Virus record (IMG/VR): IMGVR_UViG_3300037067_027643
Span: 64,001-128,000 of that record
DNA from: a virus
Lineage: Duplodnaviria; Caudoviricetes
DNA length: 64,000 bases
Strand: one strand, 5' to 3'
Shown: piece by piece, positions 36,256 to 49,447 of the stretch
How positions within the stretch are numbered: the first letter of the stretch is position 1
How the letters are laid out: each line of letters starts with the position of its first letter
The notes under the pieces: model-generated
Databases searched by the model: none
Seen by the model: the letters and a program-made list of their open reading frames with translations, nothing else
Told to the model about the DNA's origin: nothing
Position numbers and translations under genes: made by a program

Positions 36256-37932
36256 TTATACGTAGTTTAAGTGGGTTACCACTAGCTTTCCGAAAAATTC
36301 GGGGCGAACTATTTTTTTTGCATATCTCGTAAGTACACCTTTTCTCGGCGTGAAGTTAGTACTATCATATACTAATGGTGTCATAATCAATGGAACATAA
36401 GGACAAAAAACGGCACCGCACTCTAAGAACTGACTACCTCTAAATCCCATCAATATGATATTTTCTTTCATATAAGGATTTTTGTAAACAGTAAAGCGAT
36501 TATTCAATAAACCTACTTTTTGTACTCCCATTGCAAATTGCATTTGGTTTCCATCAGTATCAGCTGCATAACCAGGAATTGATTCGATTATAGTAGCAAT
36601 ATCAGGAGAGCAAACCATAAAGTTAGCACCACCACGCATTGTTTTTTGGTGAATCTTGTTGCTGATTTTTTGCAATTTAGTACCTAAAGTTTGGAACCAA
36701 GTCTGTTGAGTATATTTAAGAGCGTATCCACTTTGTAAATCTTGACTTGTAAAGTTAGATTCACCATTAGTAGTTTGTCCTGTGTGTACAGTTCCTATTT
36801 TAGCTGACCAATAATCAGTTGTGATAGCGTTAAGAATCAACATATCTAAGATTTCTAAGTCAATTTCCATTGAAATATATTCACTCAACATACTTGTTAA
36901 TTCTGCTTCAGCATCAATTGAATGGTAAGCGTTTAAGTCCTGTGCAAATTCAGGAGTCCATACTGCTTTTAACTTTTTAGTTTTAGCAACAATTGGTTCA
37001 CTTCTCAATGATACGTTTATTTCTGGGATATCTAATGCGTTAGCACCTACTGATGTACCAGGAGCGTATTTATCGGGACCAGTTGTTCCACTTCCCCATG
37101 CAGGATCACCTTGAGCTTGGAAATCACCTCTATCGTAAGCTAATGGAGCTTTGCTATATTTTACCAATACTGTTGAAGCACTACCACTACACATAAAGGT
37201 TACATAACGAGTTGAAGCTGCTCCAGCACTTGTTACAGGCATTGTATTAGCTGGGTAATAAGCTTCGATACCACTACCACTAATATAGAAACTTCTTACA
37301 CCTTCTACATCGTGATTGGTTGTATTCATATCTACAGTTACTCTTTTCATTTCATCTGCTGCTACAGAAGCACTTAATGGAGCTGAATAGTTACAATCTG
37401 CCCAAGAAGCTGAAGTAATAGTTGTTGATAAACTTGCTGTATAGTCGTTAGTACTATATCCAAATCTACCTGCACCATATAAACCTTGTTCTGCATCAAA
37501 TGTTTGGTTAGTAATACCAAATACTGAATTGTTTTGTTCGTAAGTAGTATTAGTAGTATTGAAACCTGGTTGATCAGTTCCATATTTGAAATCTAAGTAG
37601 AATACAAGTCCACTAGGTAAGTTCATTGGTTGTACTGATACGAAGTCTTTAGCTGCTATTTCTGCAAAGATACGTCTTACTAATGGTAAAGCTACTCCTG
37701 ACCATTCTTCTGCACCTGTTGCTGTTCCTGTTTGTGATACTTCACTGATTAACTGTCTTGCTTGGTTTTCTAACAAAATAGCCATTCCATCTCTTTCGTA
37801 ATCACTTTTAAGACCGTCTAACAGTCCTGTTTTTTCCCATTTCTGGTTCAGAGCAATACTATCATTACGCATATTTTTATACGTAGATTTTATTTGTCCC
37901 TCTCCTATCAAATCACTAAATTTTTTATTCAT
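36256..37932 (-). CDS. Major capsid protein (T4 gp23-like)
   Basis: LLENQA, LPLVRR, VSVQPMNLPSGLVFYL, KLKAVWTPEFAQDLNAYHSIDAEAEL, CPYVPL, FTPRKGVLTRY. Confidence 0.95.
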   Translation of the reverse strand: MNKKFSDLIGEGQIKSTYKNMRNDSIALNQKWEKTGLLDGLKSDYERDGMAILLENQARQLISEVSQTGTATGAEEWSGVALPLVRRIFAEIAAKDFVSVQPMNLPSGLVFYLDFKYGTDQPGFNTTNTTYEQNNSVFGITNQTFDAEQGLYGAGRFGYSTNDYTASLSTTITSASWADCNYSAPLSASVAADEMKRVTVDMNTTNHDVEGVRSFYISGSGIEAYYPANTMPVTSAGAASTRYVTFMCSGSASTVLVKYSKAPLAYDRGDFQAQGDPAWGSGTTGPDKYAPGTSVGANALDIPEINVSLRSEPIVAKTKKLKAVWTPEFAQDLNAYHSIDAEAELTSMLSEYISMEIDLEILDMLILNAITTDYWSAKIGTVHTGQTTNGESNFTSQDLQSGYALKYTQQTWFQTLGTKLQKISNKIHQKTMRGGANFMVCSPDIATIIESIPGYAADTDGNQMQFAMGVQKVGLLNNRFTVYKNPYMKENIILMGFRGSQFLECGAVFCPYVPLIMTPLVYDSTNFTPRKGVLTRYAKKIVRPEFFGKLVVTHLNYV

Positions 37933-37951
37933 AATTTTTTAATCTCCTTCT

Positions 37952-39094
37952 TTATTTTTTATTGTTTGTTTGTTTATTATCATTACTTATGTTTGCTAAT
38001 TTTTGAAAGCGATCTCTTATTTCATTACTTTCTAAAATAACTTTTTTCTTGTTAACTTGGGTATTACCGACTATTCCTGATGCAATACTTTCGGTTAATC
38101 TTTTTGTTGTTCCGTTTACTTCTTTTTTAACTGATGTGGATTTTAAACTTTCTACTAATGTTACATATACTAATTTTACTTCTCTTAAACTGTTAGCTTT
38201 ATCCATATTATCAATTATCTTTAGTTTTTGAGATTCTGATAATTTTTCATATTGTCTAAATAATTTGTTAGCATATAAAAGTTTACTATTTAACAAGTTA
38301 ACTTCATTCATAGTAGTTTTTAATGACTTAATAACTTTGATAGCTTCTGATAAGTTTTTTTCAGCTCTTGCTGTTTTTTTCTTTTGTTCTTCTAATTCGT
38401 AATTGTTATATTCGTCATTAGGTTCATCTTCTTCTTTCATATCAGCTACTAATTCATCAATGTTGATGTCTTCATCATCGTCATCTGTTTTAGGTTCTTC
38501 TGCTGGAATTTCTTCTTCCTCTGTAGTTGTTTCTTTAGGTTCATCTTCTACTGGATCAGTATCAACTGGAATGTCATCTTCATCATTGTCTTCGTTTTCC
38601 ATTTTGATTTCGTCATCTTCTGTAGCTGGGTTTTCATCACCTTCAAGTTCTTTTAAGATTTCTTCCAATTCTTTTTCATCTTCTGATTTTTCATCTTCTT
38701 CTTGAACTGGTTCATCTTCTGTTTTAGGTTCGTCGTCTTCGATGTCAATATCTTTGTCATCTTCTTCTGATACTACTGGTTCTTCAGTATCAATTTTTTC
38801 TCCGTCTTCTTCTTTTACTGTTTGATCATCGTCGGCTGTAGATTTTACTTCGTCTTCTCCATCATCTTCCATTCCTTCTTCGTTAGTTGCTACTGGTTCG
38901 TCTTCGACTTCGATATTTTCGTCGTCTTCTCCACCTTCAACTTCTTGTTTAATTTTTTCACTAAACATTGCCTGTAATTTAGGATTGAATGCATCTGCTA
39001 TTGCTATTTTTGCATTTTTTAATGCTACTTCTTTAATCTGTTTAGCATCTGCAATTGCTTCGTCAAACAATGTTTTGTTTGTTGTTTTTGCCAT
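37952..39094 (-). CDS. Prohead scaffold/core protein (gp22-like)
   Basis: Highly acidic centre, coiled-coil C-terminus, directly upstream of MCP. Confidence 0.8.
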   Translation of the reverse strand: MAKTTNKTLFDEAIADAKQIKEVALKNAKIAIADAFNPKLQAMFSEKIKQEVEGGEDDENIEVEDEPVATNEEGMEDDGEDEVKSTADDDQTVKEEDGEKIDTEEPVVSEEDDKDIDIEDDEPKTEDEPVQEEDEKSEDEKELEEILKELEGDENPATEDDEIKMENEDNDEDDIPVDTDPVEDEPKETTTEEEEIPAEEPKTDDDDEDINIDELVADMKEEDEPNDEYNNYELEEQKKKTARAEKNLSEAIKVIKSLKTTMNEVNLLNSKLLYANKLFRQYEKLSESQKLKIIDNMDKANSLREVKLVYVTLVESLKSTSVKKEVNGTTKRLTESIASGIVGNTQVNKKKVILESNEIRDRFQKLANISNDNKQTNNKK

Positions 39095-48558: not shown

Positions 48559-48577
48559 GTTATAATATTTCTCCTTA

Positions 48578-49447
48578 TTATTTACTAATATTCTTTAATT
48601 CATCTATCAACTGATAAAATTTTAATAAGGCTACCACAGTTGAATCTTTAATCTGAGTCTTACTTTCTTTAATTAAATTGAGCTGGTTAAGTGTTTCTTT
48701 TAATTTTATCTTAATTACTTTATCATCTATCGTCTTAGCTACCTCTACCACCTGTTTTTTAATCTTTGGAATCTCTTTACAAATAAATTCTTTTAACTTT
48801 ACATTATCACTAATATTATTGATATATTCTCTTAATAGATTCTTCTGTTCATTATTTAAATTTTGATATTTCTTATTAAATATTTCCAACATTTTCTTAT
48901 ATGAAAACAACTGCATATCCCTATCTAATGAATCAAATTCTTTTGTTGTATTTTCTTTTATTGTTTCGACTGAGCTTTTATTCTTTTTATTATTTGTAAT
49001 ATGTTCTATCAAAGTAAATCTACTATCTACTATTTCTGTCGCTGGAACATTACCGATACAACTTTCAAATAACTGATATATAGAAGCTAGTTCTTTGTAA
49101 TTATTTATTTTAGCTTTTACAAATTCATTTATCTTATAACATTCATTAATTTTTTTAACTAAATTATATTTCTGTTTTCTTAGTTCATTGTTATTTAATG
49201 ATTTTCTTTGAGATATAACAGTTTCTATTAAATGAACAGCTTTATCTTGATTTCCTTCGTATTTAGTTTGAAGCAAAGTATTGTATAAATAATACTCTTT
49301 ACTAAGTTCAGAATTCTTTTTAAAAAATTCAGATAATATAGTTGTTGCTTTACATTGTACACCACTAAGTGTATCCGAAGCAATTTGTCTTACAAGTAAC
49401 TCAAATAAAATACCTGTGTTTTTAAATTTACTGTGCTTATTCTTCAT
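48578..49447 (-). CDS. Head-cluster hypothetical protein
   Basis: 289-aa ORF (KHSKFKNTGILFELL) directly after portal, ACTATTTATA motif upstream. Confidence 0.65.
   Translation of the reverse strand: MKNKHSKFKNTGILFELLVRQIASDTLSGVQCKATTILSEFFKKNSELSKEYYLYNTLLQTKYEGNQDKAVHLIETVISQRKSLNNNELRKQKYNLVKKINECYKINEFVKAKINNYKELASIYQLFESCIGNVPATEIVDSRFTLIEHITNNKKNKSSVETIKENTTKEFDSLDRDMQLFSYKKMLEIFNKKYQNLNNEQKNLLREYINNISDNVKLKEFICKEIPKIKKQVVEVAKTIDDKVIKIKLKETLNQLNLIKESKTQIKDSTVVALLKFYQLIDELKNISK

What the first reader, a model, noticed from the sequence alone, without database searches (positions are those of the whole stretch)
36256..49447. Phage bS21 amid Shine-Dalgarno-bearing late genes in a host phylum that largely ignores SD
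Seen: a bS21 homolog (40724-41053) sits in the head cluster. AAGGAG/AGGA/GGAG precedes MCP, scaffold, protease, tail tube (6364) and most neighbours (starts 40708, 41331, 42009, 43115, 43514, 44294, 44899, 45598, 45975, 47992, 48558, 49447). The early-type small genes I checked, and bS21 itself, have only A/T-rich upstream regions. Established: Bacteroidota ribosomes sequester the anti-SD using bS21/bS18/bS6, and phage bS21 genes near structural genes are known. Inference: the phage bS21 replaces the host protein, frees the anti-SD and selectively boosts SD-led late mRNAs.
Basis: partly seen in the sequence, partly recalled or inferred. Interest (0 to 1): 0.72.

Follow-up and report, generated by a model that had tools for sequence, protein, structure and literature searches.

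The report
Phage bS21 travels with Shine-Dalgarno head genes
A 286-kb phage that most likely infects Bacteroidota carries its own ribosomal protein bS21 inside the one late operon whose genes have Shine-Dalgarno sites, and across about 100 related phages the protein and the sites appear and disappear together, which suggests the phage protein lets host ribosomes read those sites.

Summary
ORF 40724-41053(-) is a bS21 homologue (Pfam 45 bits, cut-off 27). It sits between the prohead protease and the major capsid protein. Sixteen of the 20 genes from 49447 down to 36256 carry AGGA/GGAG/GAGG at -18..-4, against 39 of 452 elsewhere in the 286-kb genome (Fisher p 5e-13). The bS21 gene itself has none.

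"Late genes" is too broad. The SD block is a single late operon, running from an ACTATTTATATAA promoter to a hairpin terminator. Portal, TerL and most first genes behind late promoters lack SD. Tail tube, sheath, SSB, helicase and RNR have it.

A Bacteroidota host is supported by TTTG-N18-21-TAnnTTTG promoters in 32 of 132 intergenic regions (shuffles 0.25) and by the nearest bS21 relatives.

New here: among 107 related head modules, 69 have bS21 and an SD-led capsid gene, 26 have neither, 9 (one high-GC clade) have SD only and 3 have bS21 only. The "neither" phages are not one clade (AU p 4e-9).

Tyr54, which pins the anti-SD in host ribosomes, is Y/F in 68 of 70 host bS21 but R/K in 56 of 92 phage bS21. 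This phage keeps Phe91-Tyr92.

The ribosome-reprogramming idea is plausible and better supported than before, but unproven.

The parts
40724..41053 (-). Phage bS21 gene (109 aa). It has a basic, probably disordered N-terminal extension of about 37 aa, a canonical three-helix core, Phe91-Tyr92 at the position of F. johnsoniae Tyr54-Ile55, and a 17-aa C-terminal extension. There is no SD upstream.
   Evidence: Pfam PF01165 at 45.1 bits. Best PDB matches are P. gingivalis 9i5v and F. johnsoniae 7jil bS21. AF2 model has helices 49-63, 65-73 and 78-107, with aa 1-40 at low pLDDT. Upstream sequence.
36256..49447 (-). SD-rich late head operon of 20 genes: head-core or scaffold-like small proteins, prohead protease, bS21, a SprT-like protein and the MCP. 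Sixteen carry an AGGA/GGAG/GAGG motif.
36256..37932 (-). Major capsid protein (gp23 type), led by GAAGGAG 11 nt before the ATG
   Evidence: Pfam Gp23 4e-75 and PHROG 138; upstream sequence
37952..39094 (-). 380-aa protein just upstream of the MCP (position of a scaffold or vertex protein), led by TAAGGAG
   Evidence: no family match
45993..46670 (-). Prohead maturation protease, led by AAAAGGA
   Evidence: PHROG 207 at 1e-51
39309..40013 (-). SprT-like zinc-metalloprotease-fold protein inside the operon, without SD
   Evidence: Pfam SprT-like 2e-07, 31.3 bits, cut-off 25.6; not a conserved neighbour of bS21 in relatives
49484..49503 (-). Late-promoter-like motif TTTTTACTATTTATATAAAT, 50 nt upstream of the first gene of the SD block
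   Evidence: 27 sense copies in the intergenic regions against 0.6-0.8 in shuffles. The same CTATTTATAAA motif sits before late genes of Flavobacterium phage immuto.
36203..36230 (-). 12-bp hairpin followed by a T run, directly after the MCP stop codon: likely terminator of the operon
49515..53150 (-). Portal protein (1211 aa) with its own late-type promoter motif and no SD
   Evidence: PHROG 213 at 7e-46
55343..57523 (-). Large terminase, no SD
   Evidence: PHROGs 5989 and 2
6378..6869 (+). Tail tube protein, led by AAAAAGGAG: an SD-led abundant virion protein outside the block
   Evidence: PHROG 4542 at 1e-22

Best explanation
The window is the head-gene region of a 286-kb, 25% GC T4-like jumbo phage that most likely infects a member of the Bacteroidota. 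In that phylum the ribosome normally hides its anti-SD in a pocket made by bS21, bS18 and bS6.

The phage places its own bS21 in the middle of one late operon (promoter near 49.5 kb, terminator at 36.2 kb). That operon encodes the proteins needed in the largest numbers.

Proposed mechanism:
1. The bS21 cistron has an SD-less, A/T-rich leader, so ordinary SD-blind host ribosomes can translate it.
2. The product exchanges into 30S subunits in place of host bS21. bS21 is a late-binding, loosely held protein.
3. Ribosomes carrying the phage protein no longer keep the 16S 3' tail pinned, or they stabilise the SD-anti-SD helix with the extra basic N-terminal segment.
4. These ribosomes then initiate efficiently on the moderate SD sites (AAGGAG / AAAGGA, about -6 to -10 kcal/mol) of capsid, core, protease, tail tube and sheath mRNAs, and less well on SD-less host mRNAs.

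Shown: gene identity, the SD distribution, the operon layout, co-occurrence of bS21 with SD-led head genes across relatives, and loss of the pinning tyrosine in most phage homologues.

Inferred: the host, incorporation into ribosomes, and the effect on the anti-SD and on translation.
For: (1) SD sites are concentrated in the operon that holds bS21: 16 of 20 genes against 39 of 452, p 5e-13. They are positionally specific.

(2) Among unique related head modules with at least 4.5 kb upstream of the MCP, 69 are bS21+/SD+, 26 are bS21-/SD-, 9 are bS21-/SD+ (one clade, GC 38% or more) and 3 are bS21+/SD-. Two of those 3 have near-miss AAGGG motifs.

(3) SD frequency of neighbouring genes was 42% with bS21 and 4.8% without in the first set of loci.

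(4) The bS21-/SD- phages need 7 changes on the MCP tree, of which 4 are forced by supported branches. Holding them as one clade is rejected (AU p 3.7e-9). In independent pairs SD always changes in the same direction as bS21 and never the opposite.

(5) Whole-genome matched pair in the window's own clade, both with Bacteroidota-type promoters. The window genome (bS21+) has SD on 11.7% of genes, clustered. G001 (bS21-, 184 kb) has 1.8%. Complete genomes without bS21 (immuto, G014) have SD on 2-6% of genes.

(6) The residue equivalent to F. johnsoniae Tyr54 is Y or F in 68 of 70 Bacteroidota bS21. In 92 phage bS21 it is R 48, K 8, Y 26, F 5 and other 5. The next residue (host Ile/Val) is mostly Arg.

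(7) Published work shows that Y54A or C-terminal truncation of F. johnsoniae bS21 raises translation of SD-led reporters 1.7- to 5-fold and lowers initiation on SD-less mRNA (PMC9976891, read).

(8) bS21 is the only gene family in the +-10 kb module whose presence tracks the SD state. The genome has no bS18 or bS6.

(9) Host: TTTG-N18-21-TAnnTTTG in 32 of 132 intergenic regions against 0.25 in shuffles. The best solved relatives are the two Bacteroidota ribosomes. All 80 best genome matches are Bacteroidota.
Against: - This phage's own bS21 keeps an aromatic residue (Phe91) at the Tyr54 position, followed by Tyr92. Phe could stack on A1534 as Tyr does.
- SD usage is the same in relatives with aromatic (0.44) and basic (0.43) residues there. 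Residue 54 therefore cannot be the whole mechanism.
- One lineage (L036/L180) has bS21 but no SD. A high-GC clade has an SD-led MCP without bS21.
- The number of well-supported independent transitions is small: 4 pairs, sign test p 0.125 at best.
- Some SD-led genes (SSB, helicase, RNR) are probably expressed before a late bS21 would be available.
- In half of the Arg/Lys-type relatives bS21 itself is SD-led, which weakens the 'bootstrapping' argument.
- Microcystis phage Mel-JY01 has the same syntenic bS21.
- Two other complete relatives (G012, G014) show no Bacteroidota promoter signature.
- Chen et al. 2022 concluded from their phages that the phage bS21 keeps blocking the anti-SD.
- There are no expression or biochemical data.
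Confidence: 0.45

Rival explanations
1. Host-lineage confound. The bS21+/SD+ phages infect hosts whose ribosomes read SD natively (for example cyanobacteria or other non-sequestering lineages) and use SD simply as hosts do for abundant proteins. bS21 is carried for another reason, such as a general boost of initiation or ribosome upkeep late in infection. The co-occurrence then reflects which hosts the sub-lineages infect, not a functional coupling.
For: - Mel-JY01, with a syntenic bS21 and SD on 28% of genes, is recorded as a Microcystis phage.
- G012 (bS21+) shows no Bacteroidota promoter signature.
- The one cultured bS21-/SD- relative, immuto, is the only member with a proven Flavobacterium host.
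- A high-GC clade has an SD-led MCP without bS21.
Against: - The window genome and its bS21-free clade-mate G001 both carry strongly enriched Bacteroidota-type promoters. Yet they differ in SD usage, 11.7% against 1.8%.
- bS21+ and bS21- lineages interleave on the MCP tree. This would need 4-7 host-group switches.
- Even in the window genome SD is confined to about 12% of genes, unlike phages of SD-using hosts.
- Mel-JY01 has 34% GC and TAnnTTTG enrichment (25 of 72 regions against 5.9 in shuffles), so its host label may not be decisive.
- The window's bS21 is closest to Bacteroidota proteins.
Confidence: 0.2
2. The phage bS21 works like the host protein, as Chen et al. 2022 proposed. It keeps the anti-SD blocked and merely tops up or replaces host bS21 when host synthesis stops. 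Any selectivity comes from its divergent N-terminal part. The purine-rich AAGGA motifs act independently of the anti-SD, for example as unstructured purine tracts or as sites for another factor.
For: - The window's bS21 retains Phe91/Tyr92 and a weakly charged C-terminal region like Bacteroidia bS21.
- 31 of 92 phage homologues keep Tyr or Phe.
- Chen et al. 2022 (PMC9723584) reported aromatic residues in all of their phage bS21.
Against: - This does not explain why SD-like sites appear only in phages with bS21, or why they match the 16S tail with canonical spacing.
- 61% of the homologues in this family have lost the aromatic residue that is near-universal in hosts.
- Fully blocked ribosomes gain nothing from moderate SD sites (PMC9976891).
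Confidence: 0.15
3. The SD-led phage mRNAs are read by the natural sub-population of ribosomes that lack bS21, which may grow when host gene expression collapses. The phage bS21 has the opposite role: it keeps enough replete ribosomes for the many SD-less phage genes. The two features then co-occur as two halves of a division of labour.
For: - McNutt et al. 2023 showed that bS21-free ribosomes prefer SD-led mRNA and do worse on SD-less mRNA.
- About 88% of this phage's genes are SD-less.
- The window's bS21 keeps an aromatic residue.
Against: - Supplying more bS21 would shrink the very ribosome pool that reads the SD-led capsid genes transcribed from the same operon.
- The Arg/Lys substitutions in most homologues argue against conservation of the blocking function.
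- Relatives without bS21 manage with no SD at all.
Confidence: 0.1

Closest known systems
bS21-encoding jumbo myoviruses of freshwater Bacteroidetes (Chen et al. 2022, ISME Commun, PMC9723584)
   Same: - A large phage (about 290-330 kb there, 286 kb here) with many tRNAs.
- bS21 embedded among TerL, portal, prohead protease and MCP.
- Predicted Bacteroidota host.
- The proposal that the phage protein substitutes into host ribosomes to favour late phage transcripts.
   Different: - There bS21 lies on the strand opposite the structural genes, and GC is 31-34%. Here it is on the same strand, inside the operon, and GC is 25.5%.
- Those authors reported an aromatic residue at position 54 in all their phage proteins and concluded that the anti-SD stays blocked. 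They did not examine SD motifs.
- In the MCP family studied here, 61% of homologues have Arg/Lys at that position, and bS21 presence tracks SD-led head genes.
bS21 autoregulation by specialised ribosomes in Flavobacterium johnsoniae (Jha et al. 2021, PMC7797042; McNutt et al. 2023, PMC9976891)
   Same: The same ribosomal site and the same logic. The state of bS21 decides whether the anti-SD is available, and only SD-led mRNAs respond. Loss of Tyr54 or of the C-terminal part raises SD-dependent translation.
   Different: - In the host, the SD-led message is rpsU itself, with a very strong SD (below -13 kcal/mol), read by ribosomes that lack bS21.
- In the phage, the bS21 gene is the SD-less one, and its roughly 16 operon neighbours carry moderate SDs (-4 to -10 kcal/mol).
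- McNutt et al. speculated about phage bS21 exchange but not about SD-led phage genes.
Pelagibacter phage HTVC008M bS21 and other viral ribosomal proteins (Mizuno et al. 2019, cited in PMC9976891)
   Same: A T4-like myovirus that encodes bS21. The protein is reported to be incorporated into ribosomes (in E. coli).
   Different: Different host phylum, with no anti-SD sequestration described. No link to SD usage was reported. This comparison was not re-examined here.
Flavobacterium phage vB_FspM_immuto (MW353176)
   Same: Same head-module order (TerL, portal, protease, scaffold-like, MCP). MCP is 52% identical. It has the same CTATTTATAAA late-promoter-like motif.
   Different: No bS21 anywhere in its complete genome. 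SD appears on only 1-2 of the roughly 45 genes in the 41-kb structural region. Its MCP leader is A/C-rich without G.

Membership tests
Ribosomal protein bS21 (Pfam PF01165) | Sequence match above the curated threshold | tested here: met
   45.1 bits against a cut-off of 27, aa 42-89; 46.5 bits in the genome search
Ribosomal protein bS21 (Pfam PF01165) | Small helical fold (alpha1-alpha3) | tested here: met
   AF2 model with helices 49-63, 65-73 and 78-107, core pLDDT above 90. This is a prediction only.
Ribosomal protein bS21 (Pfam PF01165) | Binds the 30S platform beside the 16S 3' end | not testable with these tools
   Needs ribosome purification or cryo-EM
Bacteroidia-type bS21 (anti-SD-sequestering form) | Signature Tyr54 that stacks on A1534, followed by Ile/Val55 | tested here: inconclusive
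   The window has Phe91-Tyr92 at these positions. Hosts have Y 66 and F 2 of 70. Phage homologues have R/K in 56 of 92. Phe is a conservative change seen in 2 of 70 hosts.
Bacteroidia-type bS21 (anti-SD-sequestering form) | Compact protein of about 63 aa with no N-terminal extension and a weakly basic C-terminus | tested here: not met
   109 aa, with 51 residues before the Ala of the ALK motif against 14 in hosts, and 17 residues after Phe91. The C-terminal charge is low, as in hosts.
bS21 jumbo phages of Chen et al. 2022 (clades a-e) | bS21 within the conserved TerL / portal / protease / MCP block | tested here: met
bS21 jumbo phages of Chen et al. 2022 (clades a-e) | bS21 encoded on the strand opposite the structural genes, next to the 'bS21_CN' gene | tested here: not met
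   It is on the same strand as all 19 neighbours. This same-strand synteny is shared by L003 and by the related loci with bS21 tabulated.
bS21 jumbo phages of Chen et al. 2022 (clades a-e) | TerL phylogenetic placement inside clades a-e | not tested
T4-like (gp20-gp23) head module | gp23-type MCP, gp21-type prohead protease, gp20-type portal and a large terminase in one module | tested here: met
   Pfam Gp23 4e-75; PHROGs 138, 207, 213 and 5989
Shine-Dalgarno-led initiation sites | Complementarity to the 16S 3' tail at canonical distance from the start codon, enriched over background | tested here: met
   Twelve of 20 genes have 6 or more nt complementary to ACCUCCUUUCU. The first G of GGA lies 9-16 nt before the ATG. 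Positional enrichment is 11-fold.
Shine-Dalgarno-led initiation sites | Pairing with the anti-SD raises initiation | not testable with these tools
   Needs reporters or ribosome profiling in the host
Phage of a Bacteroidota host | Host-type sigma-A promoters TTTG-N19-21-TAnnTTTG before early genes | tested here: met
   32 of 132 intergenic regions in sense orientation, against a shuffle mean of 0.25 and a maximum of 2. No TTGAC-N17-19-TATAAT was found.
Phage of a Bacteroidota host | Direct host link (CRISPR spacer, prophage junction, culture) | not tested
   No tool here gives spacer matches. The IMG/VR 'provirus' label is not backed by any change in composition.

The most novel reading that the evidence does not exclude
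Phage bS21 is a portable switch that turns the SD-blind Bacteroidota ribosome into an SD-reading one. This gives the phage a private translation channel: only the mRNAs it has tagged with AAGGAG/AAAGGA (capsid, core, tube, sheath) are favoured, while SD-less host mRNAs are disfavoured. The gene and the SD tags have been gained or lost together several times within one family of T4-like phages. The switch can be made either by replacing the anti-SD-pinning Tyr54-Ile55 with Arg-Arg or, as in this phage, through added N- and C-terminal segments.
Probability: 0.4. Interest if true: 0.85.

Novelty: new variant of a known kind. Interest (0 to 1): 0.74.

Why it matters
bS21 is by far the ribosomal protein most often carried by phages, and nobody has shown why. 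The usual suggestion, that it "substitutes into ribosomes and favours phage mRNA", has lacked any feature that marks the favoured mRNAs.

Here such a mark is visible in sequence. SD sites occur on the most abundant virion proteins only in phages that carry bS21, in a host phylum whose ribosomes are known to ignore SD unless bS21 is missing or mutated.

This turns a vague idea into a direct experiment with reagents that already exist: F. johnsoniae reporter strains, purified ribosomes and the 7JIL structure. It would be a clear natural case of a virus reprogramming ribosome specificity with a single small protein.

It also qualifies the published conclusion that phage bS21 always keeps the anti-SD-blocking tyrosine.

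Tried and rejected
- Close relatives by bS21 sequence. The word-based protein search found only one (94% identical). A viral-contig scan with bS21 found none. I used MCP-based scans instead.
- The 30-sequence bS21 alignment was too diverse for a genome scan. The 5-sequence alignment worked, but its single search pattern may favour Bacteroidota.
- Expression: no RNA holder listed for the head operon. 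Read laying was not used, because only DNA contigs were on offer.
- Rfam found no known RNA family in 30-56 kb.
- A conserved partner gene for bS21, such as the SprT-like protease as a candidate host-bS21 protease. Rejected as a general feature: no other family in +-10 kb tracks bS21.
- An SD-like AAGGAGGAG inside the bS21 coding region as a conserved autoregulatory site. The enrichment in relatives is weak (11 of 30 aromatic-type genes against a 16% background), so I did not pursue it.
- Statistical proof of correlated evolution. With only 4 well-supported independent pairs (7 on all branches), the sign test cannot reach 0.05.
- The Bacteroidota promoter signature as a host marker for the whole family. 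It is present in the window genome and G001, partly in Mel-JY01, and absent in G012 and G014. The host inference therefore holds for the window's own clade only.
- Sigma-70 consensus scan of the region: no more hits than in shuffles.
- bS18 and bS6 homologues in the phage genome: none.

Full report
**What the window is.** The window is bases 64001-128000 of a single 285,744-bp virus record with a uniform 25.5% GC. It carries 22 tRNA genes and a T4-like head module on the minus strand. That module holds a large terminase (55343-57523), portal (49515-53150), prohead protease (45993-46670) and a gp23-type major capsid protein (36256-37932). The nearest capsid proteins in GenBank belong to an uncultured huge phage (55.6% identical), Microcystis phage Mel-JY01 (55%) and Flavobacterium phage immuto (52%).

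**The bS21 gene.** ORF 40724-41053(-) encodes 109 aa and matches Pfam Ribosomal_S21 at 45 bits (cut-off 27).
- Its best solved relatives are the bS21 chains of the two Bacteroidota ribosome structures, Porphyromonas gingivalis 9i5v and Flavobacterium johnsoniae 7jil. These rank ahead of Firmicutes proteins.
- All 80 best matches in 185,579 species genomes are Bacteroidota. The search pattern may favour them.
- Compared with the roughly 63-aa host proteins it has about 37 extra N-terminal residues. These are lysine-rich and of low confidence in the AF2 model. It also has 17 extra C-terminal residues on a long third helix.
- The extension is conserved in a 94%-identical metagenomic protein and, in shorter form, in relatives. 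It is therefore translated.

**The SD observation.** I called 472 ORF-based genes in the whole genome and scored the -18..-4 window before each start.
- Only 55 genes (11.7%) have AGGA, GGAG, GAGG or longer. In-gene ATG controls give 7.8%.
- Sixteen of the 55 fall within the 20 consecutive genes from 49447 down to 36256 (Fisher p 4.6e-13). The best of 20,000 permutations reached 11.
- Within that stretch the motifs are 11 times denser in the pre-start windows than elsewhere on the sense strand.
- The first G of GGA lies 9-16 nt before the ATG.
- Twelve of the 20 genes have 6 or more contiguous bases complementary to the Bacteroidota-type 16S tail ACCUCCUUUCU, against 12 of 452 elsewhere.
- The bS21 gene, the SprT-like gene and one small gene have no such site.

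**What the SD-led class really is.** A motif TTTTTACTATTTATATAA occurs in 27 intergenic regions in sense orientation, against fewer than one in shuffles. It sits before portal, sheath, large structural genes and the first gene of the SD block. The same CTATTTATAAA motif precedes late genes of Flavobacterium phage immuto, so it is very probably the late promoter of this phage group.

Only 6 of the 27 first genes behind it have SD, and portal and TerL have none. A 12-bp hairpin with a T run follows the capsid gene. The SD block is therefore one late operon of about 13 kb, not "late genes" in general.

Outside it, SD-led genes include tail tube, tail sheath, a gp32-like SSB, a DnaB-like helicase and an RNR subunit. 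The common thread is proteins needed in large amounts.

**Host.** The Bacteroidota sigma-A promoter architecture TTTG-N18-21-TAnnTTTG occurs in sense orientation in 32 of 132 intergenic regions of 40 nt or more. Shuffles give a mean of 0.25 and a maximum of 2. No TTGAC-N17-19-TATAAT promoter is present. Genes behind these promoters are SD-less in 31 of 32 cases.

Together with the bS21 similarity and the late promoter shared with a Flavobacterium phage, this makes a Bacteroidota host likely for this phage. It is not proven.

**Comparative test.** Three MCP-based scans of IMG/VR gave 229 loci with up to 10 kb on each side. For each I called ORFs, located the MCP, searched six frames with a bS21 HMM, and scored SD before the MCP and its same-strand neighbours.

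| bS21 | SD before MCP | Unique MCPs (at least 4.5 kb upstream) | Note |
|---|---|---|---|
| present | present | 69 | |
| absent | absent | 26 | |
| absent | present | 9 | one clade, GC 38-53% |
| present | absent | 3 | two have AAGGG near-misses and 31-56% SD-led neighbours |

- In the first set of loci, neighbouring genes are SD-led in 42% of cases with bS21 and 4.8% without.
- Whole-record searches confirm that bS21 is absent from immuto (complete), G014 (100% complete) and G001 (79% complete).
- On an MCP tree of 108 rows the bS21-/SD- state needs 7 changes, of which at least 4 are forced by supported branches. Forcing those 26 rows into one clade costs 213 log-likelihood units (AU p 3.7e-9).
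- In independent pairs SD always moves with bS21 and never against it. With 4 supported pairs the sign test cannot be significant.
- No other gene family in the module tracks bS21.

**The closest matched pair.** The window genome and G001 sit in the same small clade. Both have about 26% GC and Bacteroidota-type promoters (32 of 132 and 15 of 113 regions). The one with bS21 has the SD-led operon. The one without has SD on 1.8% of genes.

**The residue that pins the anti-SD.** In the F. johnsoniae ribosome Tyr54 of bS21 stacks on A1534 and Ile55 packs against the tail. Tyr54 is described as uniquely conserved in the phylum (PMC7797042). Y54A or removal of residues 43-64 makes ribosomes translate SD-led messages 1.7- to 5-fold better and SD-less ones worse (PMC9976891).

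I aligned 70 unique Bacteroidota bS21 and 92 unique phage bS21 from the related loci.

| Residue at the Tyr54 position | Host bS21 (70) | Phage bS21 (92) |
|---|---|---|
| Y | 66 | 26 |
| F | 2 | 5 |
| R | 0 | 48 |
| K | 0 | 8 |
| other or gap | 2 | 5 |

The next residue is mostly Arg in the phage proteins. Most phage proteins in this family have therefore lost exactly the feature that blocks the anti-SD. This differs from the conclusion of Chen et al. 2022 for their phages.

The window's protein is in the minority: it has Phe91-Tyr92, while its nearest relatives L003 and L006 have Arg-Arg. SD usage is equal in the aromatic (0.44) and basic (0.43) classes. If the coupling is causal, something shared by both classes must contribute. 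The N-terminal extension is the obvious candidate: the phage median is 28 residues before the ALK motif against 14 in hosts.

In the aromatic class bS21's own gene is never SD-led (0 of 30). In the basic class it is in 29 of 56.

**Interpretation.** The best reading is that the phage bS21 is made from an SD-less leader by ordinary ribosomes and exchanges into 30S subunits. It then makes the anti-SD available, so that the SD-tagged mRNAs for the most abundant virion proteins are preferred. I put this at about 0.45.

The main rival, at about 0.2, is that SD and bS21 both merely mark sub-lineages that infect hosts with SD-competent ribosomes.
- It is kept alive by the record of Mel-JY01 as a Microcystis phage with a syntenic bS21, and by the lack of a Bacteroidota promoter signature in G012 and G014.
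- Against it stand the matched pair above, the interleaved phylogeny, and Mel-JY01's own 34% GC and TAnnTTTG enrichment.

Two further readings are less likely because they do not explain the co-occurrence. One is that the phage protein blocks the anti-SD as the host's does. The other is a division of labour with bS21-free ribosomes.

**Novelty.** Phage bS21 next to head genes, and the idea that it favours late phage transcripts, are published (PMC9723584). Three full-text searches found no paper that connects phage bS21 with SD-led phage genes or reports loss of Tyr54 in phage homologues.

I therefore rate this a new variant of a known kind. It has a concrete, testable mechanism, and the finding rests on correlation only.

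**Limits.**
- Gene calls are my own longest-ATG ORFs.
- SD scoring is motif-based.
- The trees are quick searches on one protein.
- Loci are 20-kb fragments.
- Host assignment is indirect.
- There are no expression data.

Noticed in passing
window 25199-29581 (-): Array of 22 tRNA genes covering 19 amino acids, in three tight groups between small ORFs
   Followed up: no
window 49484-49503, 53201-53215 and about 25 other places in G000: Conserved TTTTTACTATTTATATAA motif before portal, sheath and other structural genes: 27 sense copies against fewer than 1 in shuffles. The same core CTATTTATAAA precedes late genes of Flavobacterium phage immuto (L002). Probably the late promoter of this phage group.
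   Followed up: partly
G000 genome-wide, e.g. window 30273-30332: Bacteroidota-type promoters TTTG-N18-21-TAnnTTTG in 32 of 132 intergenic regions. No canonical -35/-10 sigma-70 promoters.
   Followed up: yes
window 39309-40013 (-): A SprT-like zinc-metalloprotease-fold gene sits two genes after bS21 in the head operon and has no SD. McNutt et al. 2023 speculated that bS21 phages might encode a protease against host bS21. This gene is not a conserved neighbour of bS21 in relatives.
   Followed up: partly
window about 41022-41030 (-), codons 8-11 of bS21: The longest anti-SD complement of the operon, AAGGAGGAG, lies inside the bS21 coding sequence, 22-30 nt after its ATG, with no in-frame start behind it. 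It could trap SD-competent subunits and so act as feedback. Internal SD-like motifs occur in 11 of 30 aromatic-class bS21 genes against a 16% background.
   Followed up: partly
window 49515-53150 (-) and 55343-57523 (-): The portal ORF is 1211 aa, but only aa 835-1070 match portal profiles, so it has a long unexplained N-terminal part. The terminase has an insert (aa about 283-364) that matches RNR-like and unknown PHROGs, possibly an intein or mobile insert.
   Followed up: no
L313 7143-7370 (PP395634.1 Microcystis phage Mel-JY01): A cultured phage recorded on Microcystis elabens carries an annotated RpsU in the same place between protease and MCP. It has 34% GC, SD on 28% of genes and TAnnTTTG enrichment in intergenic regions. 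Either the family spans phyla or the host record deserves re-testing.
   Followed up: partly
L036 / L180 (IMGVR_UViG_3300009537_000008): The one clear exception. It has a bS21 (71 aa, Arg at position 54, almost no N-terminal extension) 4 kb from the MCP, but the MCP is SD-less and only 1 of 18 neighbours is SD-led.
   Followed up: no
L023, L035, L049, L058, L061, L068-L070, L079 and duplicates: A monophyletic clade with 38-53% GC has an AGGA/AGGAG-led MCP but no bS21 in the flanks or, for the four records searched whole (L035, L049, L068, L079), in the contigs. The hosts may read SD natively.
   Followed up: partly
G000 whole record: IMG/VR classes the record as a provirus. Composition is uniform at 25% GC over 286 kb, and I noticed no obvious host-like flank in the gene calls. 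Near-identical DNA (90-100% of sampled words) occurs in a groundwater and a landfill metagenome from different studies.
   Followed up: no
window 42027-43115 (-): A 362-aa head-operon protein begins with a DUF3008 domain (aa 4-59) that recurs in several PHROGs of unknown function
   Followed up: no
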